From: Candidatus Woesearchaeota archaeon
Lineage (GTDB): Archaea > Nanobdellota > Nanobdellia > SCGC-AAA011-G17 > JAPLZO01
Reading direction: 5' to 3'
NCBI GenBank assembly: GCA_043802295.1
Contig: JAZDLF010000037.1
Coordinates: forward strand, 1-61,482
DNA: 61,482 nt
Below the pieces are notes generated by a model, which saw nothing but the letters and a program-made list of their open reading frames with translations, did not search any database and was not told the origin of the DNA. Shown here piece by piece: positions 3,822 to 52,179 of the stretch; position 1 is the first letter of the stretch, and each line of letters opens with the position of its first letter. Both the position numbers and the translations under genes were made by a program.

Positions 3822-3830
3822 TTCATTACC

Positions 3831-4679: not shown

Positions 4680-4704
4680 TTATAGGGACACCTCTATAAT
4701 AATA

Positions 4705-6710: not shown

Positions 6711-6741
6711 ATTAACCTCTTTTTATTTAATTAATGCTTAC

Positions 6742-22213: not shown

Positions 22214-22989
22214 AAAAATTTATTTGTCTAACATTTGATATTGAAGAATTTGATTTAGTTAATAATAAAAATGATCAATTTAATTTAAGTTATATTGGTA
22301 CATTAAATATATTAAGGCTATTAAATAAAAATAATATAAGATCAACATTTTTCATTACATCTACTTTTGCTGAGAAATATCCAAGTTTAATAAAAGAAAT
22401 TTCAAAAAAACATGAAATTGCTAATCATGGTTATTCACATGAACATAACTACAAAAAAATGGATAGTCAACAGGCTTTAGACTTTATAAAAAAATCTAAA
22501 TTTATAATCGAAAAAATAATAGGTAAAAAAATATATGGATTTAGAGCACCAGGATTATTTGCTCCAAAATATAAAGTTATAAAAGAATCAGGTCATGAAT
22601 ATGATAGTTCATTACATCCAACATTTGGATTTTTTCATTACAATAATTTTTTTAAAAAAAGAAAAATTTATGTAGAGGAAGGCATTAAAATAATTCCAGT
22701 ATCAGTCACACCATTAATAAGAGCTCCTTTGTTTTGGTTTGCTTTTAAAAATTTTGGTTTAACTTATATTAAAACATGTACAAAATTTTGTTTTATAGAT
22801 CAAAATTATGTAAATATGTATTTTCATTCATGGGAATTTAGTGATTTAAAAAAACAAAAAATTAACTATTTTTATAAAAGAAATAGTGGATTAATATTAG
22901 AAAAAAAATTAAATAAATATATAACATGGTGTTTATCAAATAATTATGAATTTATAACTATTAAAAATTATATAAATAAAATAAAATGA
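22198..22989 (+). CDS. Polysaccharide deacetylase (CE4-like)
   Basis: LTFDIEEFD, TFFITSTFAEKYP and IANHGYSHE blocks. Overlaps its neighbours by 16 nt and 4 nt. Confidence 0.7.
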   Translation: MVVKIKKFICLTFDIEEFDLVNNKNDQFNLSYIGTLNILRLLNKNNIRSTFFITSTFAEKYPSLIKEISKKHEIANHGYSHEHNYKKMDSQQALDFIKKSKFIIEKIIGKKIYGFRAPGLFAPKYKVIKESGHEYDSSLHPTFGFFHYNNFFKKRKIYVEEGIKIIPVSVTPLIRAPLFWFAFKNFGLTYIKTCTKFCFIDQNYVNMYFHSWEFSDLKKQKINYFYKRNSGLILEKKLNKYITWCLSNNYEFITIKNYINKIK

Positions 22990-38148: not shown

Positions 38149-38202
38149 AAAATTTATAAATTGACCACTTATAAATTTAATGAATATAAATTCAACACTA
38201 AA

Positions 38203-39171
38203 ATGATTAATAGAACTAAAATAAAAAATGTTATCCAAAAAAGCCAAATATCTAGAAATTTCTATAATTCTTATCTAAAATCTAAAATTTATTTGTATTT
38301 TAAACTATTAAATTTAGAAAATATAAAAGATATAGCTTTAGATGTTTTAGGCATAGAGTTTACTTCAATTTGTGATCTAAAATGTAAATGGTGTTCGCTT
38401 GATAATTCAAGGGCAAAAGGTTTTATGGAACCCAGATTATTCAAAAAAATATTAGATGACATATCTCAATCAGATATAAAAATAAAACATATTACATTAC
38501 ATCATGCTGGAGAAACATTATTACATCCAAAATTTAGAGAAATGTTAGAAATTTTAGGTGAAAAAAAGAAAAATACCCCAAATTTTCCTTATATTTCATT
38601 ATTAACTAATGCAACAACATTAAATGATAATAAAATAAATGCAATTTTAGAAACTGATTCAATTGATTGGATGAGATTTAGTATAGATGGTGGCAATAAA
38701 AAGGATTTTGAAGCTATACGAATAGGAGCAAAATGGGAAAATGTTTTATCTAATGTAAACAAATTTTTAGATAAAAATAAAAAAACAGGTAAAAATATCA
38801 AAACTTCTATATTATGTTTAATGACCAATCCTTCTAAACAAATTTCAGAAGAATTTAAAAAATTATTAGAAAAAGTAGATGAATATAGAATAAATCCACC
38901 ACATAACTGGGATGGTTCTAAAAACCTAGGTTTAAAATCTAAATTTATAAAAGGTGGTTGTTGGAGAGCATTAAAAAGTATGGCTATATTATGGGATGGT
39001 CGTGTTGTACCTTGTTGTGCTGATTTAAATGGAAGAGGTATTATAGGTGATTTAAAAACACAAAAACTATATAAGGTATACTTAGGTAAAGAAAGACTTA
39101 AAATATTAAACAAAATGAAAAATAATCAACGTAGTAAAATAGAATTATGTAAAAACTGTAGTAATTTTTAA
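38203..39171 (+). CDS. Radical SAM enzyme with SPASM/twitch-like C-terminal Cys domain
   Basis: FTSICDLKCKWCS (CxxxCxxC). The C-terminus has CWRALKSMAILWDGRVVPCCADLNG...CKNC. The track start at 38161 is TTG; ATG is at 38203. Confidence 0.75.
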   Translation: MINRTKIKNVIQKSQISRNFYNSYLKSKIYLYFKLLNLENIKDIALDVLGIEFTSICDLKCKWCSLDNSRAKGFMEPRLFKKILDDISQSDIKIKHITLHHAGETLLHPKFREMLEILGEKKKNTPNFPYISLLTNATTLNDNKINAILETDSIDWMRFSIDGGNKKDFEAIRIGAKWENVLSNVNKFLDKNKKTGKNIKTSILCLMTNPSKQISEEFKKLLEKVDEYRINPPHNWDGSKNLGLKSKFIKGGCWRALKSMAILWDGRVVPCCADLNGRGIIGDLKTQKLYKVYLGKERLKILNKMKNNQRSKIELCKNCSNF

Positions 39172-40082: not shown

Positions 40083-40676
40083 TTATAGATAAGCCTTCCA
40101 TTCAGATCCAAATTTTAATGATACCATCACAGCATCTGGTTTAAAATTTAACAATTTCATTTGTGAAATATACTTCTGTATATCTTCAGGTCTACCTAAT
40201 ACATCTGGGGAAACAATGCATGTCTTAAAACCAATAAGTTCTTTTGCAATCTTTTTATCTATTGGAAGTTTTGTGTTAGTATCTATCCATACCCAATCAA
40301 CAAGATTTTTATGTGCTAATGTAAATTCAATTGGTTCAGCTTCAGAGTATCTTACTGCAATTTTTTTAAAGTTATTCTTTCTAGTTGCTCTGTATATAAA
40401 AGGATATTCAACATCAAGTAAAAAATAGTCTTTAATATTATATCTCTCAGCTAGATTGATTACATCTTGTTCTATTCCTGTTTCTTTAATATTAAATATT
40501 ATAAAACTATGTTTATAATATTTCAAATATTCTTCTAAATCATCTCCATCTTGATGGGGTTCATGATTCAATATCAATCTATTTCCATTAGCTCTTATAT
40601 CTATTTCAACACCATATTTAAATGGAATTTTTTTTAATTCATCTATTTTATTTATTCTATGAATAATTATTATCAT
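40083..40676 (-). CDS. GDPD/PI-PLC-like phosphodiesterase (putative)
   Basis: The N-terminal IIHRINK...GVEIDIRANGNRLILNHEP resembles the HR...ExD...H catalytic pattern of glycerophosphodiester phosphodiesterases. Short, at 197 aa. Confidence 0.45.
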   Translation of the reverse strand: MIIIIHRINKIDELKKIPFKYGVEIDIRANGNRLILNHEPHQDGDDLEEYLKYYKHSFIIFNIKETGIEQDVINLAERYNIKDYFLLDVEYPFIYRATRKNNFKKIAVRYSEAEPIEFTLAHKNLVDWVWIDTNTKLPIDKKIAKELIGFKTCIVSPDVLGRPEDIQKYISQMKLLNFKPDAVMVSLKFGSEWKAYL

Positions 40677-42241
40677 TTTAACTCGTACACTGTTATTTCC
40701 AATTGATCTGAGGAAGGTGCAGGAGCAACATAAACTTTTCTATAACCTAATTTTAAAAGTGTATCAATTATTATTTTTTTATTTTTTGAATCTTTAGCTG
40801 CATAAATTTCCTCTAAAACTACAGATGGTTTATTTTTAGTTATATATTTTTCTATTATTGGTATATCTTTATCAAATAAGTTTGAACCTTCATGAAACCA
40901 GAGATGCAAACCTTTTGGTGGTTCTACATTGTAATCACAATAAAGAAAATTATATTCACTTAAACTAATAAAACTTTTATTATTTCTCTCTATAATATTT
41001 CGTATTTCTTTAAGATCTTTTGCATGAATATCTATATTAAAAAAACTAGCTCCTTTATAACAACCTTGATCTATTTTATTATGTGAATATAAAATATTGT
41101 ATACCTGTCCTATTGGTGTTGTAAAATATGAGTATCTTGTAAAAGTAAAGGGTTCTAAATAATTAAATTGCATTAATATAACAAAAAATATTATAATATA
41201 AGTTAACATTTTTTTACTAATAAAAAAAGATTTATTTATATCCAAATAATTAATGTTTTTATTTTTGATTAACAAATAAAATAAAAATAACATTATTGGT
41301 AAAGCCATAATCCTCATTTGATTTCTCATACCAGAAGAAACACTAGTTATAACAAAAAGAGAATTTATTATTATTAAAATACTTATTATTTTTTTATTTT
41401 TTATATTATCCTCTTTAAAAAATAGGAATAGCAAAAATATTAACAAATAAAAATTGAATGAATATAATGTTACACTCAGACCATATAAAGAAAAGATTTG
41501 ATATACAATTGAAGAATGTGGATATTGTTCTAATCCACCACCTTGTCCTAAGCTAAATTGATGCTCAAAATCACTAAAACTACTAAATATAACAAATATT
41601 AAAGAAGTTAATATCAAAAAAGGTAAGACATATTGAACTAATATCTTTTTAAAATCTTTTCTATAATAATAAACAAAATATAAAAATAATAAACCAAATT
41701 GCATTAAACCTGTATCTTGTTTTGAATAAAATGATAATATTGTTAGAATAGCAGATAATACTAAAATTTTTGTTTTAGCCTCTTTAACATCTAAATATTT
41801 AATCAAAATTAAAATGTTCAATAAAAAAAAGAAAAGGGCCATTTCATTATACCATGGAAGAGCAATCACTCCATAATATGAATAATAAAGAGCAATAGAC
41901 ATAAATATACTAAAAATATTGCCAAAATATTTTACAATGATAAAATAGAATATTATTGCTAAAATTGATGATAGAAATGCAACATGCATAGCCATTGCAA
42001 TTAAATTTGGGCCAAATATATGATTAAATAAAGCTTGTATATAAAATACAATTGGACCAACTGGAATAAAAAAATCTTTATATGGCACTTGACCTAAATA
42101 TATCCTATATCCACCAGCATATGTAGCAGAGAAATCACGAAGAAAATTTGTTCCAAAAGCACCTATCAAAGAAAAAATTACTATAAAAGAGATTATAACA
42201 AAACATGCAATAGAATGTTTAATTATGTTTTTTTTGTCCAT
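40673..42241 (-). CDS. Polytopic membrane protein, candidate GT-C glycosyltransferase
   Basis: 522 aa with about 12 TM segments plus a roughly 130-aa C-terminal soluble domain. Early loop GQVPYKDFFIPVGP is reminiscent of GT-C (DUF2029/GT87-like) proteins. 4-nt overlap with the downstream gene. Confidence 0.45.
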   Translation of the reverse strand: MDKKNIIKHSIACFVIISFIVIFSLIGAFGTNFLRDFSATYAGGYRIYLGQVPYKDFFIPVGPIVFYIQALFNHIFGPNLIAMAMHVAFLSSILAIIFYFIIVKYFGNIFSIFMSIALYYSYYGVIALPWYNEMALFFFLLNILILIKYLDVKEAKTKILVLSAILTILSFYSKQDTGLMQFGLLFLYFVYYYRKDFKKILVQYVLPFLILTSLIFVIFSSFSDFEHQFSLGQGGGLEQYPHSSIVYQIFSLYGLSVTLYSFNFYLLIFLLFLFFKEDNIKNKKIISILIIINSLFVITSVSSGMRNQMRIMALPIMLFLFYLLIKNKNINYLDINKSFFISKKMLTYIIIFFVILMQFNYLEPFTFTRYSYFTTPIGQVYNILYSHNKIDQGCYKGASFFNIDIHAKDLKEIRNIIERNNKSFISLSEYNFLYCDYNVEPPKGLHLWFHEGSNLFDKDIPIIEKYITKNKPSVVLEEIYAAKDSKNKKIIIDTLLKLGYRKVYVAPAPSSDQLEITVYELK

Positions 42242-42248: not shown

Positions 42249-43697
42249 TTAAACAGTTACTTTTTTCATTCTATGTTTGAAAATATATTTAAGCAAATAA
42301 CCCCAAGAAGCATTGACATGATGTCTATTTGTAAAATAACCATCACTTAATCTCCAAAGTATTCTATATGCAACATTATCAGGTGTGTTAATTATAACAT
42401 TTTTAATAAACTCTCTCATCAATGGAAAGTTAATATATATTTGAGACCATCTAGAAAGTAATATTATTTTCTTACCATCTTTATCTCTTCTAAAACAATC
42501 ATAAAAATTCATGGTTGTATCACCAATCATACTTGAATCTTGAATCAATGTTTTGTCATACTGACCAATTTTAACACCATATTCAGTTATACTAAGTCTT
42601 GGAAATGGTTTAAAAATATTTACAGCAACAACAGAGTTTTTAGAAGATATTTTAGCAGCAAAATCCAAAGTTTCAAAAGCATTTTCTAAAGTCTCTCCAG
42701 GTAATCCTAACATAATAGACATTGAATATTTAAGATTATACTTCTTAAAAAGATCAGTTGCTTTAATATACTGCTCATTAGTTAATTTTTTATTAAGAGT
42801 AGTCATTCTAAATTTTTCATTACCTGTTTCTAAGCCTAATCTAATTATAAAACATTTTTTTGTATCTGCCAACAATTTACAATATTCATCATCAACCTCA
42901 TTAACAGTAGAATTAATAGTAAAAGGAAGATCAACTTTTTCTTTATATTTATTTAAAAATTCTCTTAACCATTTTTTATCATAACCTAAAGTACTATCAT
43001 TAAAAAATATATTTTTTATTTTATATTTTTCTTTTATCATAACACATTCTTTTATAACATTATCAACATCTCTTAAAGCACAATATTTTTTGTCTACATG
43101 AGCATACATTTCACGATATTTATGATTAAAACAATAAGAGCAGCTATAAGGACAGCCTCTTCCAACCATTACTAAACCAAATTCGATATCTCTAAAATAA
43201 GAAGAATAATCTCTATAAATCTCTCTATCTTCAAATAATCTTTCATTTACATCCTTAAAAGGTCTAATATCATTTTTAATTATTTTTCCATCTTTTTTAA
43301 CCCATAAATTAAGTATTTTTGAGTAATCTTGTTTTTTGTCTATTGCATCAGCTAATTCTACAATAACATCATCACCTTCTCCTCTACAAATAATATCAAT
43401 ATATGGGTTTTGAATTATTTCTGGAAAAAAAGATGCATCATGTCCACCAACAACAATCAGAGCTTTTATTTCATTTTGCCTTATTAATTTAGCAGTATCC
43501 ATCATATATTTTCTGTTTGCAGTTATAACAGAAAAAGCAATAATATCAGGATCAAATTCTTTTATTTCTCTTATTACTTTTTCATCCTCACCAATAGACA
43601 AACCAACTTTATGACCAGCATTTTTTAAAGCAGCAGAAAGTGTTCCAACTGCTTCAAAAGGGAACCATAAATTTTGAACAAATATAACTTTAGTCAT
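42249..43697 (-). CDS. B12-binding-domain radical SAM enzyme (class B), paralog of 33693-35225
   Basis: DIIAFSVITAN...IVVGGHDASFFP, GRGCPYSCSYC and NLWVKKDGKIIKNDIRP. Confidence 0.8.
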   Translation of the reverse strand: MTKVIFVQNLWFPFEAVGTLSAALKNAGHKVGLSIGEDEKVIREIKEFDPDIIAFSVITANRKYMMDTAKLIRQNEIKALIVVGGHDASFFPEIIQNPYIDIICRGEGDDVIVELADAIDKKQDYSKILNLWVKKDGKIIKNDIRPFKDVNERLFEDREIYRDYSSYFRDIEFGLVMVGRGCPYSCSYCFNHKYREMYAHVDKKYCALRDVDNVIKECVMIKEKYKIKNIFFNDSTLGYDKKWLREFLNKYKEKVDLPFTINSTVNEVDDEYCKLLADTKKCFIIRLGLETGNEKFRMTTLNKKLTNEQYIKATDLFKKYNLKYSMSIMLGLPGETLENAFETLDFAAKISSKNSVVAVNIFKPFPRLSITEYGVKIGQYDKTLIQDSSMIGDTTMNFYDCFRRDKDGKKIILLSRWSQIYINFPLMREFIKNVIINTPDNVAYRILWRLSDGYFTNRHHVNASWGYLLKYIFKHRMKKVTV

Positions 43698-43794: not shown

Positions 43795-44625
43795 TTATTT
43801 TTTAAAATATTTTTTCCATAAAGGGAGCAACCTCTTTTCTTCTTCATTTATATCTAAAGGTATTACATTATTCTTAATTATAAACTCTATTCTTTCGTAA
43901 TCATATAAATCATCTGGCTTTCCCCACCCAACAAATAAATCAACATCAAAAATAATAGATTTTTTACCAATTTTTTTTAAAAATTTTGGAATTGAATCTA
44001 CATAAAATTCATTATTAGTTCTATAATTTTCTTTAATCATCAAATTTGATGCATCAATAAAATATTTCGCCTTTTTAAAATAAAAAGTACCTACAACAGC
44101 ATGATCATTATAAGAATTATTAGAAACAGGGACCTTTATTGATATATCTTTTATAGTTTCATTATCATCCTCAAGTATATACCACCCCCATGCATTTGGA
44201 TTTCTTCTAAGAGTTTCTCTTTTAGTAAATGTTAAGACTATACAATCAACATCTTTTTTTTCTCTTAATTCATCAAATTTATTTTTATTATAAAGAAAAC
44301 CAATATCACAAGATGCTATAATAAGATCATCATCTAAATCAAGATATTTTTCAGCAAGCATACAAGTACATGCCTGCCCTTCAGTTGTTTTATCTATCGC
44401 TATTATTATTGCATTGGGTATTTCTCTTTTAATAATCTTATCAACACCATAATCGATATGCTCTTGTCTCATAACAAAAATCCACTTATTTGCTTTTGGT
44501 AAATCCTTTATAACATTTAATATCATTGGTTTACCAGAAACAGATATTAATGACTTTAAAAGTTTATAACCAACTTGTGAAAACCTTGTCCCAAGTCCAG
44601 CCATTGGTATTAATATTGTTGTCAT
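43795..44625 (-). CDS. Sugar-phosphate nucleotidyltransferase-family protein
   Basis: ILIPMAGLGTRF (GxGTR signature). Paralogous to both halves of the upstream 524-aa protein. Confidence 0.7.
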   Translation of the reverse strand: MTTILIPMAGLGTRFSQVGYKLLKSLISVSGKPMILNVIKDLPKANKWIFVMRQEHIDYGVDKIIKREIPNAIIIAIDKTTEGQACTCMLAEKYLDLDDDLIIASCDIGFLYNKNKFDELREKKDVDCIVLTFTKRETLRRNPNAWGWYILEDDNETIKDISIKVPVSNNSYNDHAVVGTFYFKKAKYFIDASNLMIKENYRTNNEFYVDSIPKFLKKIGKKSIIFDVDLFVGWGKPDDLYDYERIEFIIKNNVIPLDINEEEKRLLPLWKKYFKK

Positions 44626-44642: not shown

Positions 44643-46211
44643 TTATTGAAGCATTTTGGAATATGGATGGTAGCTTAACTTATCAAAATAATCTTGCCAA
44701 TACATCATCTCTTTATAATTTATTATATTTCTAATTGGAACAAATCTATCTACCTCAAATATAGCTACCTTTCTTTTCTTTATAATATTATTAATACAAC
44801 TTAAATAATATATTTTTCCTGTTTTATTATTTTTAATTTCCTCTTCAATGCTATCAAATAAATATTTTGCTTTTTTAAATATGGTAGTGCCAGTAAGTGC
44901 ATGATCTAAGTAAGGATTATTTGATAATGTTCTCTTTTCTATGATCTGTTCAACCTCAATATTATTTTTTAATTTTGCATATGCAAAACCATCTGGATTT
45001 CTTAATACACATTCATGATGGGTAAAAGAAAATAAAATTATATCTATATCTTCTTTCTCCATTAAATTCATCATTTTCTTTTCATTATAATTTAAGATAT
45101 ATGTAGATCCACAAATACATACTGGTGATTCGGGGTCTATTTTATCTTTTAATTCATATATAGTTGAAGCATTACCTCTCTTTATATCATCAATATAAAC
45201 AACTTCTGAAGAATAATCTTTACATATAGGCAAATTATCAAAATATTCTTTTTCTTTATTCAATCCTATAAAAACATTTTTTATACCTCTTGGATTTGAT
45301 CTAAAAGAATAATCTATAAGTGTTTTATTCATTATTGGTATCATAAAATTAGGCACATCATATCCTATATCCTTAAAATCTTTTTCACCACCAGCTAAAG
45401 GAAAAATATTTGTTACATTTAAGTTTACATTATCAAAAGTTATGAAATTTGGTGCATATTGAAGGAAAAATTCAGACCAAAATTTATAAAGTGAATAATC
45501 TCTTGGAGTACCTAAACAAATAAATTTCTTAACTTCAAAATTTAATATTTTTAAAGAATCTTGAATCATCAATTTAAATGGTAAACTCATATAGAATTCT
45601 CCATTAATTGCATTTGCTGGATTATCAATTAATTTTTTAACATATTCTTTAAATAATTTACCATTAGAAAAATAGTAGGTACCTGTAGAGCCATAATCAT
45701 CCATTTTATTTTTTGAAAAGCTTTCTTTTTCTTTTATATCCTTAACAAAGCCTTCATCATTAACTTTCATATATGCATAAAGAGTATCCCCCAAAGATGA
45801 AGGATGAAAACCTTTAAAACTAACAATTGCACCCGCAGGATTTTTTTCTTTTAATATTTCACAAAATTTATTATAATCCCACTCCTGAATAAAATCACAA
45901 TAATTTACAATTATATCTTCATCATCAGATATATCATCAAATGCTGCAAGGCAAGTATATGCAGGACCATGTAGCATATCTTCACCCACACTTATAATCT
46001 TAGATGAAGGAGAAATTCTTTTTAATACTTTTGATATATTAGTTTTATTTAAGTGATCCTGATTACATAAAAATATAAATTCACTTTTTCTAGGAAAATA
46101 ATTTACTATATGTTCCATCATTGGTTTTCCATCTACTTGTATTAATGGTTTAGCTGATAAAAAATCACCAAACCTTTTTCCTTTTCCAGCCATAGGAATT
46201 ATTATTTTCAT
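44643..46211 (-). CDS. Tandem double nucleotidyltransferase-like protein
   Basis: The N-terminal module has IIIPMAGKGKRF. The second module has IFPLAGGEKDF. Both modules share later blocks with the 276-aa neighbour (DHALTGTTIFKKAKYLF vs DHAVVGTFYFKKAKYFI). The track start at 46217 is TTG; ATG is at 46211. Confidence 0.7.
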   Translation of the reverse strand: MKIIIPMAGKGKRFGDFLSAKPLIQVDGKPMMEHIVNYFPRKSEFIFLCNQDHLNKTNISKVLKRISPSSKIISVGEDMLHGPAYTCLAAFDDISDDEDIIVNYCDFIQEWDYNKFCEILKEKNPAGAIVSFKGFHPSSLGDTLYAYMKVNDEGFVKDIKEKESFSKNKMDDYGSTGTYYFSNGKLFKEYVKKLIDNPANAINGEFYMSLPFKLMIQDSLKILNFEVKKFICLGTPRDYSLYKFWSEFFLQYAPNFITFDNVNLNVTNIFPLAGGEKDFKDIGYDVPNFMIPIMNKTLIDYSFRSNPRGIKNVFIGLNKEKEYFDNLPICKDYSSEVVYIDDIKRGNASTIYELKDKIDPESPVCICGSTYILNYNEKKMMNLMEKEDIDIILFSFTHHECVLRNPDGFAYAKLKNNIEVEQIIEKRTLSNNPYLDHALTGTTIFKKAKYLFDSIEEEIKNNKTGKIYYLSCINNIIKKRKVAIFEVDRFVPIRNIINYKEMMYWQDYFDKLSYHPYSKMLQ

Positions 46212-46230
46212 ATTCAAATATTATCAATTA

Positions 46231-46941
46231 TTAGTTTAATCTACCTATTCTAATCCCCCATATATCTTTTATGAATGATTTAATATTATCCATCTTACCC
46301 ATTATAGAATAAGTCCATTTAGATAATCCATATATTCTTTTAGTAAACATAACATCAAAAGGAATTATTTTATAATCATTTTTAATTGCTTTATACTGAA
46401 CATATAAATCATAAGAAAAACCTTTTGGGGGGCTTTTGAATGTTTTTATTAATTCTTTATCAAATATCTTAGGCTGACCATTAATATCATCAAAATATTT
46501 TAATAAAATTATACTTGATAAAATTTGTAGACCATACGTTAAAATTAAAGATTTCCAATCTCTCATTTTACGATGTCCCTTTACCAACATATTACCATTA
46601 GATTTTTTGTATATATCATATCCTATAAAAATATCTTCTGGAGAACATTGCAAATCTCCATGAGACCATCCAACAATTTTACTATCACAATTTTGTAAAC
46701 CTATATTTATACCATTTCCATATCCAATATTATCTTTAATTCTAATAAGTTTTATAAAATCATATTCTTTTCTAATTTTTTGTATATATTTCCAAGTATT
46801 ATCTTTAGAACCATTGTCTACTATAACTAATTGAAATTTTATTTTTTTCTTTGCTTTTTCATATTTTTCAATAAGTAAAGGTAATGATTTTAATTCATTA
46901 AAACAAGGTATTGTTATAGATAATTCATATTCTTCAATCAT
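46231..46941 (-). CDS. GT2-family glycosyltransferase
   Basis: LSITIPCFNE and VDNGSKDNT blocks. The likely start is M24 (ATG 46941), which gives an 8-nt ATGATTGA overlap with the upstream rSAM stop. The track start at 47010 lies inside that gene. Confidence 0.75.
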   Translation of the reverse strand: MIEEYELSITIPCFNELKSLPLLIEKYEKAKKKIKFQLVIVDNGSKDNTWKYIQKIRKEYDFIKLIRIKDNIGYGNGINIGLQNCDSKIVGWSHGDLQCSPEDIFIGYDIYKKSNGNMLVKGHRKMRDWKSLILTYGLQILSSIILLKYFDDINGQPKIFDKELIKTFKSPPKGFSYDLYVQYKAIKNDYKIIPFDVMFTKRIYGLSKWTYSIMGKMDNIKSFIKDIWGIRIGRLN

Positions 46942-48460
46942 AGTTTTTAACCTGTAGGATATTTTTATTATTTTTCTTATCAAAAAAATCACTTTCAGGA
47001 TTTGTTGCATCTAAACCCGAACCTGATTTTGATATTGAAATGAATGTTTTTAATACATTAAATATAACAAAAGGATGGTTTATCATAAAGAAGAATATAT
47101 TTTTTATTCCATCCCAATTTTTTATATATGAAATGATATAATAAGATCTAGAGAGTTTACTAGAATTTTTAAAACTGTCTAGAATTAAATGCTTAGCCTT
47201 TACTATTTCTTCTTTAGACATATCAGAAATATCTATATAAAATGTATCATCTTTAAGATGATGCATTGAACTCCAGTCAATTTTTTCAGGTAATTTTTTT
47301 TCATTTTGTAATTGATTAAAAAGATAAGTACCTGGATAAGGAGTAGTTATAGAAACATATATTGAAAAAGGTTTAATTTTTTTTACAAGTTCAATAGTCT
47401 TATTAACATCATCCATATTTTCTGTTGGGTTACCTACCATCAAAAATGCATGTGTAAAAATTCCTACTTTTCTACAATCATTAAATTGTTTTATAACATC
47501 TTCTATTCTAAGGCTTTTATTGATAGCATTTAATATTTTCTGTGAACCACTTTCTACTCCAAAAGCTATATTTACACAACCAGCTTTTTTCATTAATTTT
47601 AGTAATTTTTTATCTAAACAAGCTCTTGCCTGACATCTCCAAATAATTCTTAGTTTCCTATTAATAAATTCTTTACATAGATTTTCTATATAATTTGGGT
47701 TTACCATATCATCACAAAAGAAAAATATATCGGGATTATATTTCTTTTTTAACTGCTCAATTTCATCAACTACATTTTTAGGTGATCTATATCTAATTTT
47801 ATTACCAAACATTTTCTTTAAATATGGTTGACAAAAAATGCAATTAAAAGGACATCCTCTAGATGTGATAATGTTTAATTCTTTAATTGGTTTGGATTTT
47901 ATATAAGTTTGAATAGGGAAAAGATCATAATTTGGGAAAGGTAATTCATCAAGGTTTTCAATAAATTCAGCTGCTCCTGTAAAATGTACAACTTTATTAT
48001 CTTTATAATACACTCCAGGTATATTCTTAACTGATTCATTTTTTAAAATTGTGTTACATAAATTATAAAATGTTTTTTCACCTTCACCAAATATTAAATA
48101 GTCTATATCCTTATTATTAATCAATTGTTGTGGCATATTAGTTGCATGGACACCTCCAACAATAATTATATTATTTTTATTTATTTCTTTTATCTTTTTG
48201 ATAACTTTTTCAGCTATATTTAATATAGGTGTAGTTATACTAACTCCATAAATTGCTCTTTCTTTACTTAATTCAAGATTGGAATTAAATGTATAATCAT
48301 AAATCCTAATATTAAGTCCTTGTTTTATTAGATATGAAGCAATATAACCTAAACCCAATGGAGGTAATACAGCTGACCCACTCTTATAATCGTTTGGCCA
48401 AACAAGATTAATTGTATTTGATAATTTGTCTTTCATTTTATGCCTATAAATTTTTTGCAT
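46934..48460 (-). CDS. B12-binding-domain radical SAM enzyme (class B)
   Basis: IYGVSITTP...IIVGGVHATNMP, SRGCPFNCIFC and GVESGSQKIL. Confidence 0.8.
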   Translation of the reverse strand: MQKIYRHKMKDKLSNTINLVWPNDYKSGSAVLPPLGLGYIASYLIKQGLNIRIYDYTFNSNLELSKERAIYGVSITTPILNIAEKVIKKIKEINKNNIIIVGGVHATNMPQQLINNKDIDYLIFGEGEKTFYNLCNTILKNESVKNIPGVYYKDNKVVHFTGAAEFIENLDELPFPNYDLFPIQTYIKSKPIKELNIITSRGCPFNCIFCQPYLKKMFGNKIRYRSPKNVVDEIEQLKKKYNPDIFFFCDDMVNPNYIENLCKEFINRKLRIIWRCQARACLDKKLLKLMKKAGCVNIAFGVESGSQKILNAINKSLRIEDVIKQFNDCRKVGIFTHAFLMVGNPTENMDDVNKTIELVKKIKPFSIYVSITTPYPGTYLFNQLQNEKKLPEKIDWSSMHHLKDDTFYIDISDMSKEEIVKAKHLILDSFKNSSKLSRSYYIISYIKNWDGIKNIFFFMINHPFVIFNVLKTFISISKSGSGLDATNPESDFFDKKNNKNILQVKNYD

Positions 48461-48463: not shown

Positions 48464-49369
48464 TTAGTCATATTCTTTTAATGCATTTTTCCAATAATCT
48501 ACTGACTCTTTTAGATGTTGTAATACAAGACTATCATGTGGTTCTCTTTCTCTAAATGAAAGTTCTAAAAGCAAAATTGTATCCATAGATCTTTTTTCTT
48601 TTAATATTGCTATAATATCTTTAGGATTTATTTTCCCTATTTTATTATACTCTTCAATAAAAGGATAATGCCCACCTTTATCAGTTAATGATTGTTTTAT
48701 ATGCAAAAAAGGTGTAATATTTGCAAAGGTCTTTAACCACGTTTTATAATCATAGTCAGCTGGATTTTTAGATGTTATATCACCATGATCTACATCAAGA
48801 CAAAGGTTTATTGGTAATGCACTTCCTTCAAAAAGTTTTTGTATTCGTTCTGTTTCTTCTATAGTTTCTCCATATTCTCTTTTAATGGACATAGGCTCCC
48901 AACTTAAAGAAGATAACCCTATTTTTTTACAGTATTCAGCTAGTTCTCTCCATGCATTTATAGTTTCTTTTAGAATAAAGTTTCTTTTATTTCCATTATA
49001 AAGATCTTCATAACACATTATTCCTAAATGGCTTGATAGATTATTAGCACCTAATCTAGCTGTTATATCTGCTAATTTCTTAAACCATTTTTTCCAGTAA
49101 ATTCTCATATTTTCATCTGGATGAGAAAAATGATTAATTCTAGTAAATGCACCAGTCATAATACTTTCTATATTTATATTATATTCTAGTTTACACTTAT
49201 TTATACGTTTTACTAAATCATCTATAATAAAATTACCCCAAGCCGGATTTATCAAATCTGCTGTTAATTGTATATATTTTAAATTAAGCTCTTTTCCAAT
49301 AATCCTCATCCATTGTTCAGGAATAGGGTACCTATTTACCGCAAATCCAGTATTAATTCCGAGTTTCAT
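48464..49369 (-). CDS. Sugar phosphate isomerase/epimerase (xylose-isomerase-like TIM barrel)
   Basis: 301 aa. The pattern LGANNLSSHLG...WEP...LCLDVDHGD is typical of AP-endonuclease-2/xylose-isomerase-like TIM barrels. Confidence 0.6.
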   Translation of the reverse strand: MKLGINTGFAVNRYPIPEQWMRIIGKELNLKYIQLTADLINPAWGNFIIDDLVKRINKCKLEYNINIESIMTGAFTRINHFSHPDENMRIYWKKWFKKLADITARLGANNLSSHLGIMCYEDLYNGNKRNFILKETINAWRELAEYCKKIGLSSLSWEPMSIKREYGETIEETERIQKLFEGSALPINLCLDVDHGDITSKNPADYDYKTWLKTFANITPFLHIKQSLTDKGGHYPFIEEYNKIGKINPKDIIAILKEKRSMDTILLLELSFREREPHDSLVLQHLKESVDYWKNALKEYD

Positions 49370-49373: not shown

Positions 49374-50423
49374 TTATGGATTTATAACTATCTTAAGGTT
49401 TGATTTATCCTCCCTCAATTCTTTTATGGCTTCATTAAAGTCATCTAATTTAAATTTTTTACTTATTATATTAGAAAGATTTATTTTTCTTTTTTTTATT
49501 AATTCCACAGCCTTTTTATGTTGTAAAGGTGTTGAACCATGAGATCCAGTTATAAATATTTCATTATAATGTATAATATTTGATTTAAAAGAAATATCTC
49601 TATCAGTTCCAGGTAATCCTGCAAAAAAATTAATAATCCCCTTTCTTTTAATTAACTTTAGTGAAATTTCTTGTGCATCAACTGAAGGACAAGCAACAAT
49701 TATTATATCAAATCCTTGTCCATTTGTATATTTTTTATATATTTCCATCAAATTTTCATTAGTTGATAATACATATTCATCTGCATGAATAGATTTCTTT
49801 GCTATATTGATTCTTATTGGGTCTATATCTGTTAAAATTACTGTTGAAGCACCCATAATATAACCCAATTCTGATAACATACATCCCATTGGTCCTGCAC
49901 CAATTATTAAAACTTTATGCCCTAATTTTATATTACATAATTCATAACCGTTAATACAACAAGCAAGAGGTTCTGATAAAGAATATTCATCTTGGCGATT
50001 TTCAGTATCATCAATAATACATAATGGGCCATAATTTATGATTCTCTCATCTATTTTTAGATATTCAGCAAAACCTCCTTGAGTTTCATATCCAAAAGCA
50101 ATTGTATTTGAACAATGATTACCAACCCCATTTTTACACCATTCACATAAACCACAAGGAATATCAGCAGATAATGCAACCTTATCTCCTATTTTGAATT
50201 TTTTATTTACTTTTTTTCCTATTTCGACTATTTTTCCAGCTATTTCATGACCTAATATTTGGGGAAACTTAATTCTAGAACTTCCATTAGCAATTATCCT
50301 AAGATCACTTCCACAAATACTACAACTGTCTATCTTTATAAGTATATCATTGTCACTTATACTTGGTTTGGGTACTTCTTCTATATGTACATTATTAATA
50401 TCATACATTATTGCAGCTTTCAT
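49374..50423 (-). CDS. Zn-dependent medium-chain dehydrogenase/reductase (polyol or polyol-phosphate dehydrogenase-like)
   Basis: CSICGSD, GHEIAGKIVEIG, structural-Zn Cys cluster CGLCEWCKNGVGNHC, and NAD motif LIIGAGPMG. Confidence 0.8.
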   Translation of the reverse strand: MKAAIMYDINNVHIEEVPKPSISDNDILIKIDSCSICGSDLRIIANGSSRIKFPQILGHEIAGKIVEIGKKVNKKFKIGDKVALSADIPCGLCEWCKNGVGNHCSNTIAFGYETQGGFAEYLKIDERIINYGPLCIIDDTENRQDEYSLSEPLACCINGYELCNIKLGHKVLIIGAGPMGCMLSELGYIMGASTVILTDIDPIRINIAKKSIHADEYVLSTNENLMEIYKKYTNGQGFDIIIVACPSVDAQEISLKLIKRKGIINFFAGLPGTDRDISFKSNIIHYNEIFITGSHGSTPLQHKKAVELIKKRKINLSNIISKKFKLDDFNEAIKELREDKSNLKIVINP

Positions 50424-50424: not shown

Positions 50425-52179
50425 TTACGGATTGATTATAACTTTTATAAATTCTATATCTTTATTTTTTATTATATTAAGAACTTTATCTATTTGATCT
50501 AATGAAAAAGTATGTGTGATTATATTATCTATTTTTATTTCATTTTTAGATATGTAATCTATACAAAATTTCCAATCATCATTATGTTTATCATTTATAA
50601 CCGAATTCCAAGAAGAGATTATATTTAACTCACCCCTCATAATATTTGACATAGAAGAAGGATTTAATGTAATACCTTGTTCATAATTGGCTAACATTAA
50701 TATTGTAGATTGTTTATCAACATATTTTAATGCATCATTAAATAGCTCTGAAGACCCACTACAATCAATTAACAAATCAAATTTTTTATCTTCAAAACTT
50801 TCAAAGGTTGGAAAGCATTCATCAAATTCCATATTCTTTGCTACATTTAATCTATAATTATTTTTATCAATTCCTACTATTTTTCCAGCTCCAAATCTTT
50901 TTAAGAGAATTCCTGTTAATAACCCTATTGGACCTAACCCCAAAATAAGTGCATTTGAATTGACTATTTTATTTATCTTTTTTAATCCATTATATACAAC
51001 AGCAAGCGGTTCTATAAGACATGCATTGTTATAATTAATATTATTGGGTAATATAAATACATTTTCTGCAGGAACAATACATATTTCAGCAAAGCCACCA
51101 TCACATCTAGAACCAAGATAATTATATTTCTCGCATAAATTATATTTTCCCATTTGGCAGAATTTACAATTCTTGCAAGGTATTAAAGGATATACGACTA
51201 CTCTTTGGTTCAAAAGATATCTATTTTTCTCTTTTGTCTTTACAACTAATCCTGAGAATTCATGTCCGGGTACTAAATTATTTGAATACATTCCTTTTTC
51301 AAATACTCTTGTAATATCCGAGCTACAAATACCACAACTCATCACTTTTACCACCACTTCATCCTCTTGAGGTGGCATTAATTCTTTATCTTCTAAAAAA
51401 ATATTACCTATCTGTTTTAAAACAGCCGCTTTGTAAGTTTTTTTTAAAGACGTAACTATATTATTTGAAATTTTTCTCTTTGATGGATCAAAAATTATAC
51501 CCTTAAATCTTTCAATATTATTACTTAATCCATCCTCATTAAATATTAAAGAACTTCCAGCAACAACTATATCAGCACCACTATCATATAATCTTTGGAT
51601 ATGTTCTAATCTAATGCCGCCATCTGATACAATTTGTACCTTTAATTTATTATTTTGAATATATGAGTATAAATCATTTATTTTTTTATAAACAACATCA
51701 TTAAAAGGTAAGCCTGAAAATCCTGTTTTTACATTCATTACTAAAACATAATCTATATATGGTAAATACTCTTCAATTTCATTAATAGTAGTTTCTAAAT
51801 TTATAGCTAATCCTACTTGAACTTCTTTTGATTTTAAATAATTTATATTTTTAAGAATATCTTCTTTTGTTTCTACATGAAATATTATGATATCCACATC
51901 ATATTTTATTAACTGATCAAAATATTTAGATGGTTCTCGAACCATTAGATGCACATCAAAAGGTATTCTGGTTAATTCTCTACATTCTTTTATTATCCCA
52001 ATATTAAATGCCAAATTATCAGCAAATAAACCATCAATTATATCAATATGAAGATAATCTATCCCTGATTTAACTAATGAAATCACATTCCTCATTATAT
52101 GCTTTTGATCAGCACACATTAATGATGCAGCAATTTTCATAGCATTTTCACTCCTAAAGTCTTGAATTTTTATATTCAT
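50425..52179 (-). CDS. Fusion protein: ribulose-phosphate 3-epimerase domain plus Zn-dependent MDR dehydrogenase domain
   Basis: The N-terminal ~225 aa carry HIDIIDGLFADNLAF, FDVHLMV, IFHVE, VMNVKTGFSG and VSDGGI (Rpe signature blocks). The C-terminal ~335 aa carry CGICSSD, PGHEFSGLVV, CKNCKFCQMGKYNLC and LILGLGPIG (MDR). Confidence 0.8.
   Translation of the reverse strand: MNIKIQDFRSENAMKIAASLMCADQKHIMRNVISLVKSGIDYLHIDIIDGLFADNLAFNIGIIKECRELTRIPFDVHLMVREPSKYFDQLIKYDVDIIIFHVETKEDILKNINYLKSKEVQVGLAINLETTINEIEEYLPYIDYVLVMNVKTGFSGLPFNDVVYKKINDLYSYIQNNKLKVQIVSDGGIRLEHIQRLYDSGADIVVAGSSLIFNEDGLSNNIERFKGIIFDPSKRKISNNIVTSLKKTYKAAVLKQIGNIFLEDKELMPPQEDEVVVKVMSCGICSSDITRVFEKGMYSNNLVPGHEFSGLVVKTKEKNRYLLNQRVVVYPLIPCKNCKFCQMGKYNLCEKYNYLGSRCDGGFAEICIVPAENVFILPNNINYNNACLIEPLAVVYNGLKKINKIVNSNALILGLGPIGLLTGILLKRFGAGKIVGIDKNNYRLNVAKNMEFDECFPTFESFEDKKFDLLIDCSGSSELFNDALKYVDKQSTILMLANYEQGITLNPSSMSNIMRGELNIISSWNSVINDKHNDDWKFCIDYISKNEIKIDNIITHTFSLDQIDKVLNIIKNKDIEFIKVIINP

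What the first reader, a model, noticed from the sequence alone, without database searches (positions are those of the whole stretch)
50425..52179. Single polypeptide fusing ribulose-phosphate 3-epimerase to a Zn-dependent MDR dehydrogenase
**Seen:** one uninterrupted 584-aa ORF.
- Residues ~14-225 (about 51507-52140) carry the Rpe signature blocks: HxD...DGxF, DVHLMV, FHVE, VMNVKTGFSG and SDGGI.
- Residues ~250-584 (about 50428-51432) carry the MDR signatures: catalytic Cys, GHE, a four-Cys structural-Zn loop and a GxGxxG motif.

I do not recognise this domain combination from characterised enzymes. A second, stand-alone MDR gene follows 1 nt downstream.

**Inference:** the fusion would channel a ketopentose or ketohexose phosphate epimerisation directly into reduction.
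Basis: partly seen in the sequence, partly recalled or inferred. Interest (0 to 1): 0.6.

Follow-up and report, generated by a model that had tools for sequence, protein, structure and literature searches.

The report
Sugar-phosphate epimerase fused to polyol dehydrogenase
A tiny DPANN archaeon encodes one protein that joins a sugar-phosphate epimerase to a zinc dehydrogenase; the fusion is real but rare, and it probably carries out the first two steps in making an unidentified nucleotide-activated sugar alcohol or rare sugar for the cell surface.

Summary
The ORF at 50425-52179 (-) carries a complete Rpe-family barrel (residues 15-211) and a complete Zn-MDR dehydrogenase (about 248-584). All catalytic residues are invariant across 20 fused homologues.

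It is not an assembly artefact. Nineteen other full-length fusions (41-92% identity) come from independent assemblies, and both domain trees show a single origin. The fusion is rare: 2 of 401 sampled genomes of the phylum, and 2 full-length representatives among 1.84 billion protein clusters.

Other archaea carry the same genes unfused in the same cassette: Rpe-like, MDR1, MDR2, an EryC-like barrel, NTP-transferases, GT2 and B12-radical-SAM. In bacteria, the same Rpe-like and MDR lineages are neighbours. They often flank a TarI-type cytidylyltransferase, and once a TarL-like polymerase.

The fusion therefore most likely epimerises a 2-ketose phosphate and reduces it to an alditol phosphate for nucleotide activation.

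The substrate is unresolved:
- Bacterial context favours pentulose-5-P (ribitol-type).
- An AlsE-like beta8 loop, AlsE and GatD as the best solved relatives, and no detected pentose-phosphate-pathway genes favour hexulose-6-P.

Physical channelling is untested, and reads could not be checked. I rate it a new variant of a known kind, of moderate interest.

The parts
50425..52179 (-). Rpe-MDR fusion gene. 584 codons as the longest ORF; the likely true start is the ATG at 52140, giving 571 aa.
51547..52137 (-). N-terminal Rpe/AlsE-type ketose-phosphate 3-epimerase domain (residues 15-211). Metal and catalytic residues are H44, D46, H77 and D186. The beta8 loop reads AGSSLIFN, the same length as in AlsE.
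   Evidence: Pfam PF00834, E 2e-50. PDB matches AlsE 3ct7 and Rpe 1rpx/2fli at E about 1e-31. Residues invariant. Motif comparison.
51439..51501 (-). Interdomain linker (about residues 227-247). Variable in sequence, in frame in all 20 fusions, and modelled with lower confidence.
50428..51438 (-). C-terminal Zn-dependent MDR polyol-phosphate dehydrogenase domain (residues 248-584). Features: catalytic Zn (C285, H306, E307, E390), structural Zn (C335, C338, C341, C349), GLGPIG Rossmann motif, D438 (NAD-type), and a YLGSR motif shared with GatD.
49374..50423 (-). MDR2, a second Zn-dehydrogenase of a different clade (27% identical to the fused MDR). It is 42-44% identical to the cassette partners in archaea, Poribacteria and an actinomycete.
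48464..49369 (-). EryC-like xylose-isomerase-fold TIM barrel, the closest relative of Brucella tetrulose-4-phosphate racemase.
   Evidence: PDB 4k3z, E 9e-74, 252 bits over the full length. 53% identical to its cassette partner.
46934..48460 (-). B12-binding radical SAM enzyme, a cassette member.
46231..47010 (-). Small GT2 glycosyltransferase, a cassette member.
44643..46217 (-). Double-module NTP-transferase (524 aa), found only in the archaeal cassettes.
43795..44625 (-). Third NTP-transferase-like module (276 aa).
42249..43697 (-). Second B12-binding radical SAM enzyme in the operon.
40673..42241 (-). PMT_2-type GT-C membrane glycosyltransferase.
40083..40676 (-). Conserved 197-aa protein with no Pfam family. 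It is 41-43% identical to the 204-aa and 191-aa proteins of the cassettes in L010 and L002.

Best explanation
**What it is.** The gene is a genuine, single-origin fusion found in DPANN (Woesearchaeota / GTDB Nanoarchaeota) archaea.

**Proposed mechanism.**
1. The N-terminal domain is an active metal-dependent Rpe/AlsE-type 3-epimerase. It inverts C3 of a 2-ketose omega-phosphate.
2. The C-terminal domain is an active, NAD-type, two-zinc MDR of the GatD-like clade. It reduces the C2 carbonyl of that ketose phosphate to give an alditol phosphate.
3. The two steps are consecutive. They open a co-transcribed pathway (MDR2, EryC-like racemase, three NTP-transferase modules, B12-radical-SAM enzymes, GT2, GT-C) that produces a nucleotide-activated alditol or rare-sugar unit for the cell-surface glycan.

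**Preferred substrates.** My preferred assignment is Xu5P <-> Ru5P, followed by reduction to a pentitol-5-phosphate (ribitol-5-P type, a TarJ-like step), at roughly 45%. Fructose-6-P <-> allulose-6-P followed by reduction to a hexitol-6-phosphate is the main alternative, at roughly 30%.

**Shown here.**
- the architecture
- intact catalytic residues
- recurrence of the fusion
- its single origin
- the conserved gene neighbourhoods

**Inferred.**
- substrate identity
- reaction direction
- coupling to nucleotide activation
For: **Domains and residues**
- Both domains are complete, and the metal and catalytic residues are invariant in 20 fusions.
- Both domains model with confidence (pLDDT 86.4).

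**Fusion versus split genes**
- L008/L010 and G171 carry a stand-alone Rpe-like gene (41% identical to the fused domain), MDR1 (39%), MDR2 (42%) and an EryC-like gene (53%). The same NTP-transferases, GT2 and B12-rSAM genes accompany them.
- The cassette order is conserved in L001-L003 and L011.

**Trees**
- The fused MDRs form one clade (SH-aLRT 100), next to the unfused archaeal MDR1.
- The fused Rpe domains form one clade (99), sister to the cassette's stand-alone Rpe. They lie apart from the canonical Rpe of other DPANN.

**Bacterial relatives**
- The same Rpe-like and MDR1 lineages are adjacent in 54 of the 80 retrieved loci, and 51 loci have an IspD/TarI-type cytidylyltransferase beside the MDR.
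- Ruminococcus sp. YE282 has TarI (NF001183, 185.7 bits against a cut-off of 166), then the MDR, then the Rpe-like gene, then a TarL-like polymerase.
- A B. thetaiotaomicron MAG has Rpe-like, MDR and IspD-like genes inside a capsule locus.

**Other fusions of the same parts**
- MDR-MDR (P0213), GDPD-MDR (P0151) and TIM-barrel-Rpe (L016).

**Cofactor and host metabolism**
- D438 is invariant, which points to NAD(H).
- The fusion is the only Rpe-family gene in the 74%-complete genome. No transketolase, RpiA or RpiB was found, so the domain is dedicated to this pathway rather than to a pentose phosphate pathway.
- A possible pentulose-phosphate source is encoded in the same window: AMP phosphorylase, R15P isomerase, RuBisCO III and a HAD phosphatase.
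Against: **No direct test**
- No enzyme assay exists for any member of either lineage.

**Substrate chain length is unresolved**
- The beta1 motif (SLMC) and the beta8 loop (G-T/S-S-x-L-F-N, one residue longer than the canonical GSA(I/V)F) match E. coli AlsE, not canonical Rpe.
- The best solved relatives of the two domains are AlsE and GatD, both hexose-phosphate enzymes.
- The Rpe equivalog model is not reached (178.8 bits against 212.6).

**Weaknesses of the TarJ-type reading**
- I could not show that characterised TarJ belongs to this MDR clade. Public names for the clade are only 'GatD' or 'iditol dehydrogenase'.
- The archaeal cassette has no IspD-type transferase. The genome has no TagF- or LicD-type alditol-phosphate transferase. 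That weakens a teichoic-acid-like end use.

**Hints that the alditol phosphate is not the final product**
- MDR2 and the EryC-like racemase suggest it may be only an intermediate.
- The EryC match hints at C4 chemistry.

**Sampling caveats**
- The ranking of the 80 loci favours loci where an Rpe gene is adjacent.
- The genome is only 74% complete.
Confidence: 0.6

Rival explanations
1. Hexose version. The N-domain is an AlsE-type D-fructose-6-P / D-allulose-6-P 3-epimerase. The MDR is a GatD-type hexitol-6-phosphate 2-dehydrogenase. The fusion would then make allitol-6-P or altritol-6-P (or another hexitol phosphate) from fructose-6-P.
For: - The beta8 loop length and sequence (AGTSxLFN against AlsE VGTSGLFN) and the beta1 motif SLMC match AlsE, not canonical Rpe. 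From my memory of Chan et al. 2008, Biochemistry 47:9608 (not re-read here), that one-residue loop difference sets the hexulose versus pentulose preference.
- The best PDB sequence matches are AlsE 3ct7 and GatD 4a2c.
- The domain lies outside the canonical Rpe clade.
- No pentose-phosphate-pathway genes were found in the genome. Hexose phosphates must be available, because a GDP-mannose dehydratase lies 2.4 kb upstream.
Against: - The AlsE equivalog scores well below its cut-off (157 against 271) and below the Rpe models.
- Of the four AlsE-clade marker changes listed in PMC12216980, only one, the Tyr, is clearly shared by my hand alignment.
- The Poribacteria member of the same Rpe-like group passes the Rpe equivalog cut-off despite having the long loop.
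- The bacterial context is TarI/TarL-like, that is ribitol-type.
- As far as I know, no allitol- or altritol-phosphate polymer has been described.
Confidence: 0.3
2. Tetrose version. The cassette works on C4 sugar phosphates. The Rpe-like domain would interconvert D- and L-erythrulose-4-P. The MDRs would interconvert tetrulose and tetritol phosphates. The EryC-like enzyme would racemise 3-tetrulose-4-P, and the product would be an activated erythritol or threitol phosphate.
For: - The neighbouring TIM barrel matches Brucella EryC at orthologue-like level (E 9e-74, full length).
- It is a constant member of the archaeal cassette.
Against: - No E4P or erythrulose-4-P isomerase (EryH- or EryI-type; no RpiB) and no transketolase was found to supply C4 phosphates.
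- Rpe-family enzymes are not known to act on tetruloses.
- Bacterial Rpe-like/MDR1 pairs mostly lack an EryC-like gene; only 4 of 80 loci have one.
Confidence: 0.08
3. The alditol phosphate is only a transient intermediate of a redox-neutral carbonyl transposition. MDR1 reduces C2 with NADH. MDR2 re-oxidises the carbon next to the phosphate ester with NAD+, giving a ketose-1-phosphate of the opposite series. The EryC-like enzyme epimerises it. The product, not the alditol, is nucleotide-activated and passed to GT2 and GT-C. This refines the best explanation rather than excluding it.
For: - Both MDRs carry the Asp of NAD-type enzymes (D438 in the fusion; LTDID in MDR2).
- MDR2 forms its own clade, conserved alongside Rpe-like and MDR1 in archaea and in 18 bacterial loci.
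- EryC acts on a ketone adjacent to CH2-O-P (established knowledge: Barbier et al. 2014, PNAS).
- The operon carries GT2, GT-C and small EamA/ArnE-like genes rather than TagF or LicD.
- An MDR-MDR fusion exists (P0213).
Against: - A phosphate on C1 of a ketose is not anomeric, so a normal glycosyl transfer from such an NDP-ketose is hard to picture.
- L001 has the fusion and the EryC-like gene but no MDR2.
- All of this rests on homology alone.
Confidence: 0.3
4. Catabolic direction. The protein oxidises an imported or host-derived alditol phosphate to a ketose phosphate and epimerises it into central metabolism. This is what the Rpe plus pentitol-phosphate dehydrogenase operons of Lactobacillus casei and Listeria do (my own knowledge).
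For: - Bacterial loci with Rpe-like, MDR1 and MDR2 but no nucleotidyltransferase (Poribacteria, Acidobacteria, Chloroflexi, an actinomycete) look metabolic rather than glycan-related.
- The NAD-type cofactor signature is typical of catabolic dehydrogenases.
Against: - In the archaea the gene always sits in an operon with NTP-transferases, GT2, a flippase and GT-C, inside a 50-kb glycan island.
- No kinase or transporter is present in the cassette.
- No transketolase or Rpi was found to use the product.
Confidence: 0.07
5. Assembly or annotation artefact. Two adjacent genes were merged by a lost stop codon or an indel, for instance in the A8 run of the linker.
For: - The linker contains an A8 homopolymer.
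- Reads could not be inspected.
- In one relative (L019) the two parts are overlapping ORFs in different frames.
Against: - 19 other full-length fusions come from independent assemblies and four data sources. Their linker sequences are divergent, yet all are in frame.
- A fused copy at 53% identity occurs in a >90%-complete genome (G392).
- Fused sequences are monophyletic in both domain trees.
Confidence: 0.02

Closest known systems
TarI/TarJ CDP-ribitol synthesis (S. aureus, S. pneumoniae) and the Bcs1 bifunctional CDP-ribitol synthase of Haemophilus influenzae
   Same: - A Zn-MDR reduces a ketose phosphate (Ru5P) to an alditol phosphate, which is then nucleotide-activated.
- Bacterial relatives of the fused MDR sit beside TarI-type cytidylyltransferases and, in one case, a TarL-like polymerase.
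- Bcs1 shows that consecutive steps of this route can be fused.
   Different: - Here the fusion partner is the upstream epimerase, not the cytidylyltransferase.
- The archaeal cassette uses PF00483-type NTP-transferases, not IspD-type ones.
- No TagF or LicD transferase is present.
- Membership of characterised TarJ in this MDR clade is not shown.
- The cofactor signature is NAD-type.
E. coli AlsE (D-allulose-6-phosphate 3-epimerase, PDB 3ct7) and canonical Rpe (1rpx, 2fli)
   Same: - Same fold.
- Same His/Asp/His/Asp metal and acid-base residues.
- About 35-40% identity.
- The AlsE-like beta8 loop length and the SLMC motif.
   Different: - The domain falls outside the canonical Rpe clade.
- It scores below both the Rpe and AlsE equivalog cut-offs.
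- It is fused to a dehydrogenase.
E. coli GatD, galactitol-1-phosphate 5-dehydrogenase (PDB 4a2c)
   Same: - Best solved sequence relative of the MDR domain (E 1e-41).
- Two zinc sites.
- NAD-type Asp.
- A shared (Y/F)(L/I)GSRxDGGFAE motif.
   Different: - Scores 166 bits against an equivalog cut-off of 550.
- GatD sits on a long, unresolved branch outside the fused clade.
- GatD is a stand-alone catabolic enzyme.
Pentitol-phosphate catabolic operons of Lactobacillus casei and Listeria monocytogenes (Rpe plus MDR ribitol- or arabitol-phosphate dehydrogenases)
   Same: The same two enzyme families work on consecutive steps: alditol-P <-> ketose-P <-> 3-epimer (my own knowledge, not re-read here).
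   Different: - Those operons have separate genes, are PTS-linked and are catabolic.
- The sequence relationship to the present clades was not tested.
Brucella EryC, tetrulose-4-phosphate racemase (PDB 4k3z); this comparison concerns the neighbouring gene
   Same: Full-length match at 252 bits.
   Different: - Brucella EryC works with EryA, EryB, EryH and EryI in erythritol catabolism, and none of those is present here.
- Here the partners are two MDRs, an Rpe-like domain and NTP-transferases.
RpiB-Rpe fusions (P0075, P0077, P0080; L092, L101)
   Same: They are fusions of Rpe-family domains to the enzyme of an adjacent step.
   Different: The partner is an isomerase, not a dehydrogenase.

Membership tests
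Ribulose-phosphate 3-epimerase family (PF00834) | Full-length match to the family model above the curated threshold | tested here: met
   PF00834 scores 171.3 bits against 21.1, covering model positions 1-197 of 198. NF004076 scores 202.7 against 165.
Ribulose-phosphate 3-epimerase family (PF00834) | Metal-binding and acid-base residues His, Asp, His, Asp (His34/Asp36/His67/Asp176 in the numbering quoted by PMC12216980) | tested here: met
   H44, D46, H77 and D186 align to these residues. They are invariant in 20 fusions.
Canonical pentose-phosphate-pathway Rpe (TIGR01163 equivalog) | Score above the equivalog cut-off, and placement in the clade of canonical Rpe | tested here: not met
   The score is 178.8, below 212.6. 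The fused domains form a separate clade from the canonical references and from 17 of 19 DPANN stand-alone Rpe proteins. The motifs SLMC and G(T/S)SxLF differ from SILSAD and GSA(I/V)F.
AlsE, D-allulose-6-phosphate 3-epimerase (NF007266) | Score above the equivalog cut-off | tested here: not met
   157 bits against a cut-off of 271.
AlsE, D-allulose-6-phosphate 3-epimerase (NF007266) | Loop after beta8 one residue longer than in Rpe (Chan et al. 2008, recalled from memory) | tested here: met
   There are four residues between the Gly and the Phe (GSSLIF; consensus GTSxLF), as in AlsE (GTSGLF). Canonical Rpe has three.
Zn-dependent MDR polyol dehydrogenases (PF08240 + PF00107) | Both Pfam domains, the catalytic Zn ligands Cys/His/Glu(/Glu), a four-Cys structural Zn site, and GxGxxG | tested here: met
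   TM-score to MDR chains is 0.84-0.89.
GatD, galactitol-1-phosphate 5-dehydrogenase (NF007642) | Score above the equivalog cut-off | tested here: not met
   166.6 bits against a cut-off of 550.
TarJ-type ribulose-5-phosphate reductase / CDP-ribitol pathway | Reductase gene adjacent to an IspD-family TarI cytidylyltransferase | tested here: not met
   The window's cassette has PF00483-type NTP-transferases only. IspD-type neighbours occur only in bacterial relatives.
TarJ-type ribulose-5-phosphate reductase / CDP-ribitol pathway | An alditol-phosphate transferase or polymerase (TagF/TarL or LicD family) is present | tested here: not met
   PF04464 and PF04991 are absent from the 74%-complete genome.
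TarJ-type ribulose-5-phosphate reductase / CDP-ribitol pathway | NAD(P)H-dependent reduction of Ru5P to ribitol-5-P | not testable with these tools
   This needs an enzyme assay.
TarJ-type ribulose-5-phosphate reductase / CDP-ribitol pathway | Sequence clade shared with characterised TarJ | not tested
   No characterised TarJ sequence could be obtained. Homologues of the TarI-linked MDR are named only GatD or iditol dehydrogenase.

The most novel reading that the evidence does not exclude
The fusion is the entry enzyme of an undescribed pathway, shared by DPANN archaea and several bacterial phyla.

1. An AlsE-like epimerase and two NAD-type MDRs move the carbonyl of a central ketose phosphate through a transient alditol phosphate.
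2. An EryC-type racemase sets a further stereocentre.
3. B12-radical-SAM enzymes possibly C-methylate the product.
4. A novel double NTP-transferase activates the resulting rare sugar or alditol for lipid-linked, GT-C-mediated decoration of the archaeal surface.

The TarI-linked bacterial relatives would then make a CDP-alditol other than ribitol.
Probability: 0.25. Interest if true: 0.75.

Novelty: new variant of a known kind. Interest (0 to 1): 0.45.

Why it matters
**A natural Rosetta stone.** The fusion ties an uncharacterised, AlsE-like branch of the Rpe family to an uncharacterised, GatD-like branch of Zn-dehydrogenases. The same two branches are neighbours in many bacterial capsule or teichoic-acid-type loci, including gut Lachnospiraceae, Ruminococcus and Bacteroides, and in DPANN glycan islands. 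A single assay of this 571-aa protein would therefore help to annotate many genes now labelled 'ribulose-phosphate 3-epimerase' or 'galactitol-1-phosphate dehydrogenase'.

**DPANN surface chemistry.** The finding also points to a building block of DPANN cell surfaces, whose chemistry is essentially unknown. The organism appears to lack a pentose phosphate pathway.

**Limits.** The fusion itself joins two well-known enzyme types, so it is not a new kind of biology.

Tried and rejected
**Checks that could not be run or found nothing**
- Literature: searches for the fusion, for EryC homologues in glycan loci, for Rpe in tar loci and for the GatD phosphate site returned nothing relevant.
- The AlsE specificity paper (Chan et al. 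2008) is not held, so the beta8-loop argument rests on my memory of it.
- Fold search only recovered single-domain MDR chains.

**Readings considered and rejected**
- The Rpe domain is the cell's housekeeping Rpe. Rejected: no transketolase, RpiA, RpiB or HPS/OMPdecase family was found, and the domain lies outside the canonical clade.
- The fused MDR is a duplicate of the downstream MDR. Rejected: they are 27% identical and fall in separate clades.

**Attempts that were inconclusive**
- Tying the MDR clade to characterised TarJ through database names: only GatD or iditol-dehydrogenase names appear.
- Using the AlsE-clade marker residues from PMC12216980: the result was mixed (by hand alignment).
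- Comparing the TIM barrels beside the actinomycete Rpe/MDR genes with the EryC-like protein: they are unrelated at BLAST level.
Full report
**1. Observation**

The minus-strand ORF at 50425-52179 is uninterrupted.
- Pfam finds a full-length Ribul_P_3_epim domain at residues 15-211 (E 2e-50). It also finds the two MDR halves, ADH_N at 272-378 and ADH_zinc_N at 417-527.
- The NCBIfam 'ribulose-phosphate 3-epimerase' subfamily model NF004076 is passed (202.7 bits against 165).
- The equivalog models are not passed: Rpe (178.8 against 212.6), AlsE (157 against 271) and GatD (166.6 against 550).
- Against solved structures, the N-domain matches E. coli AlsE (3ct7) and Rpe (1rpx, 2fli) about equally, at E around 1e-31.
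- The C-domain matches E. coli GatD (4a2c) best, at E 1e-41.

The likely start is M14, the ATG at 52140.
- Homologues begin there.
- Residues 1-10 model poorly.
- An AGGAG precedes that ATG by 11 nt.

**2. Real or artefact?**

- A word-indexed search of 5.8 billion proteins found 19 other proteins of 564-593 aa with the same three Pfam domains. They are 41-92% identical and come from NCBI, JGI, ENA and Logan assemblies. One is labelled Candidatus Woesearchaeota.
- In the alignment of all 20, the linker (about residues 227-247) varies but stays in frame.
- The following residues are invariant: Rpe residues H44, D46, H77 and D186; MDR catalytic-Zn ligands C285, H306, E307 and E390; structural-Zn cysteines C335, C338, C341 and C349; the GxGxxG motif; and the NAD-type D438.
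- An exhaustive HMMER pass over 1.84 billion 50%-identity representatives found only two full-length fused representatives, plus fragments.
- In 401 sampled genomes of the phylum, only the window's genome and G392 (53% identity, 575-aa frame) carry the fusion.
- AlphaFold models both domains with confidence (mean pLDDT 86.4). The mutual orientation is uncertain (pTM 0.60).
- Foldseek finds no solved chain that spans both domains.

I consider an artefact excluded for practical purposes.

**3. Context in archaea**

The gene opens a ten-gene minus-strand operon:

| Order | Gene | Coordinates |
|---|---|---|
| 1 | Rpe-MDR fusion | 50425-52179 |
| 2 | MDR2 | 49374-50423 |
| 3 | Xylose-isomerase-fold TIM barrel | 48464-49369 |
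| 4 | B12-radical-SAM | 46934-48460 |
| 5 | Small GT2 | 46231-47010 |
| 6 | Two-module NTP-transferase (524 aa) | 44643-46217 |
| 7 | Third NTP-transferase-like module | 43795-44625 |
| 8 | Second B12-radical-SAM | 42249-43697 |
| 9 | PMT_2 GT-C | 40673-42241 |
| 10 | Conserved 197-aa unknown | 40083-40676 |

- The TIM barrel matches Brucella EryC (PDB 4k3z, deposited as 'D-erythrulose 4-phosphate dehydrogenase') at E 9e-74 over its full length.
- The same order recurs around fused homologues in L001, L002, L003 and L011: fusion, MDR2, EryC-like, GT2, double NTP-transferase, B12-rSAM. GtrA-like or flippase genes are often nearby.
- In L008/L010 (another Woesearchaeota contig) and in G171, the same cassette carries the two halves as separate genes.
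- There, a 257-aa Rpe-like protein is 41% identical to the fused domain. It sits next to a 204-aa unknown and the double NTP-transferase.
- About 10 kb away in that cassette lie MDR1 (39%), MDR2 (42%) and the EryC-like gene (53%).
- This is a classical fusion versus split-gene relationship.

**4. Context in bacteria**

A pattern scan of one genome per species returned 80 loci.
- Only L011 is a single ORF. In L019 the two parts are overlapping ORFs.
- In bacteria the Rpe-like gene and the MDR are separate but close. 54 of the 80 loci hold an Rpe-like gene. The ranking favours such loci, so this is not an unbiased frequency.

Two bacterial module types appear.

(a) An IspD-family cytidylyltransferase lies beside the MDR in 51 loci, from Lachnospiraceae, Ruminococcus, Bacteroides and Alistipes.
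- In Ruminococcus sp. YE282 the order is cytidylyltransferase, MDR, Rpe-like, TagF-family enzyme.
- That cytidylyltransferase passes NCBI's 'D-ribitol-5-phosphate cytidylyltransferase' threshold (185.7 against 166).
- That TagF-family enzyme matches TarL best.
- In a B. thetaiotaomicron MAG the trio lies in a capsule locus with UDP-glucose dehydrogenase and GT2.

(b) Rpe-like, MDR1 and MDR2, with or without a TIM barrel and with no nucleotidyltransferase.
- This type occurs in Poribacteria, Acidobacteriaceae, Chloroflexi, Aerophobetes, Hydrogenedentota and an actinomycete. There, MDR2 is 44% identical to the window's MDR2.
- EryC-like genes proper occur in only 4 of the 80 loci.

Other fusions of the same parts exist: MDR-MDR (P0213), GDPD-MDR (P0151) and TIM-barrel-Rpe (L016, 579 aa).

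**5. Phylogeny**

MDR tree:
- The fused domains form one clade (SH-aLRT 100), next to the unfused archaeal MDR1.
- Two bacterial stand-alone MDRs (the P0020/P0022 type, from loci with split transketolase and a TAL/FSA aldolase) are nested inside the fused clade.
- The bacterial MDR1 proteins form a sister clade (96), within which the cytidylyltransferase-linked ones are nested.
- MDR2 is a separate clade. GatD is a long, unresolved branch.

Rpe tree:
- The fused domains are monophyletic (99) and sister to the cassette's stand-alone Rpe.
- 17 of 19 stand-alone Rpe proteins of other DPANN genomes cluster with canonical Rpe references (98).

The fusion therefore arose once, from a specialised Rpe paralogue rather than from the housekeeping enzyme.

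**6. Which substrate?**

*Evidence for a pentulose-5-phosphate (Xu5P <-> Ru5P, then a pentitol-5-P)*
- The bacterial context is TarI/TarL-like.
- The Rpe models score higher than the AlsE model.
- Established biochemistry includes TarJ and the pentitol-phosphate operons (my own knowledge).
- The same window encodes AMP phosphorylase (817-2322), R15P isomerase (7392-8204), form III RuBisCO (5457-6710) and an operonic HAD phosphatase (6742-7395). Together these could supply pentulose phosphates. The supply route is an inference.

*Evidence for a hexulose-6-phosphate (F6P <-> allulose-6-P, then a hexitol-6-P)*
- Every MDR-linked Rpe-like protein, archaeal or bacterial, has S(L/V/M)MC in beta1.
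- Each also has a beta8 loop one residue longer than canonical Rpe. The motif is G-(T/S)-(S/T)-x-(L/V/I)-(F/Y), exactly as in AlsE (GTSGLF).
- As I recall Chan et al. 2008, that extra residue is what shifts preference to the hexulose. I could not re-read the paper.
- The best solved relatives of both domains are hexose-phosphate enzymes.
- The 74%-complete genome shows no transketolase, RpiA, RpiB or HPS/OMPdecase family.

*Evidence for tetrose chemistry*
- The EryC-like neighbour keeps a tetrose reading alive, but no supply route is visible.

My weighting is pentose about 45%, hexose about 30%, tetrose about 8% and other for the remainder.

**7. What happens next in the pathway**

- Both MDRs have the NAD-type Asp.
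- MDR2 and an EryC-type racemase, which acts on a ketone next to CH2-O-P, follow the fusion.
- The genome lacks TagF and LicD families, while the operon has GT2 and GT-C.

A redox-neutral route is therefore plausible: ketose-P, then alditol-P, then an isomeric ketose-P, then racemisation, then NDP-activation. In that case the alditol phosphate is an intermediate and not the final building block. I give this refinement about 30%. It rests only on homology and gene order.

**8. Comparison with what is known, and novelty**

- The parts are known enzyme types, and the two-step logic has precedents: TarJ with a Ru5P supply, and catabolic Rpe plus pentitol-phosphate dehydrogenase.
- I found no described enzyme with this architecture, and neither lineage has a characterised member.
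- Public annotations call these proteins 'ribulose-phosphate 3-epimerase', 'L-iditol 2-dehydrogenase' or 'galactitol-1-phosphate 5-dehydrogenase'.

I rate it a new variant of a known kind, of moderate interest. Its value lies in linking two uncharacterised lineages and in flagging an unknown activated sugar or alditol in DPANN and gut-bacterial glycans.

**9. Earlier notes of this scan**

- The notes describe the same operon (e1-3320896), a second fused copy in another genome (e1-3588612) and the unfused cassette elsewhere (e1-3332882, e1-1121919).
- They agree on an NDP-alditol or rare-sugar reading and on EryC as the closest relative of the TIM barrel.
- I treated them as leads only. My evidence is independent of them.

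Noticed in passing
window 817-8204 (-): The archaeal AMP/pentose-bisphosphate salvage set is present: AMP phosphorylase-like (817-2322), form III RuBisCO (5457-6710), a HAD_2 phosphatase (6742-7395) overlapping the R15P isomerase / IF-2B family gene (7392-8204). The HAD could be a phosphoglycolate or pentulose-bisphosphate phosphatase. If the latter, it would supply pentulose monophosphates to the cassette.
   Followed up: partly
window 9805-11223, 11225-12625, 33693-35225, 42249-43697, 46934-48460: Five B12-binding radical SAM paralogues, plus one SPASM radical SAM gene (38161-39171), lie in a single 40-kb glycan island. In the related locus L010, a pterin-binding DUF4346 protein and small ferredoxins sit beside them.
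   Followed up: no
P0151, P0213, L016:7005-8741, L092: Other fusions involve the same parts: GDPD-MDR (599 aa), MDR-MDR (671 aa), TIM-barrel-Rpe (579 aa, Acidobacteriaceae), and RpiB fused to a cassette-type Rpe-like domain (G011).
   Followed up: partly
L005:10001-11032, L006:10001-11032: Bacterial stand-alone MDRs, 48% identical to the fused MDR, nest inside the fused archaeal clade. They sit in glycan loci with split transketolase, a TAL/FSA aldolase, HAD or NUDIX genes and C-methyltransferase-like genes. This suggests transfer between domains and a different ketose-phosphate supply.
   Followed up: partly
window 40083-40676 (-): A 197-aa protein with no Pfam family is a conserved cassette member, 41-43% identical to L010:9390-10004 and L002:14386-14961. 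In L010 it lies between the stand-alone Rpe-like gene and the double NTP-transferase.
   Followed up: partly
window 52140-52179: The longest ORF probably over-extends the gene by 13 codons. Homologues start at the second ATG, which has an AGGAG 11 nt upstream. A TTTATAAA box lies about 10 nt before the first ATG.
   Followed up: partly
L019:6077-7838: In a Nanoarchaeota MAG, the Rpe-like and MDR1 ORFs overlap by 29 nt in different frames. They may be separate genes or a frameshifted fusion. This copy branches at the base of the archaeal clade.
   Followed up: no
window 17905-20529 (+) and 22986-24707 (+): AglB/STT3 oligosaccharyltransferase and a further PMT-type GT-C lie in the same island, confirming an archaeal protein- or lipid-linked glycosylation locus.
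   Followed up: no
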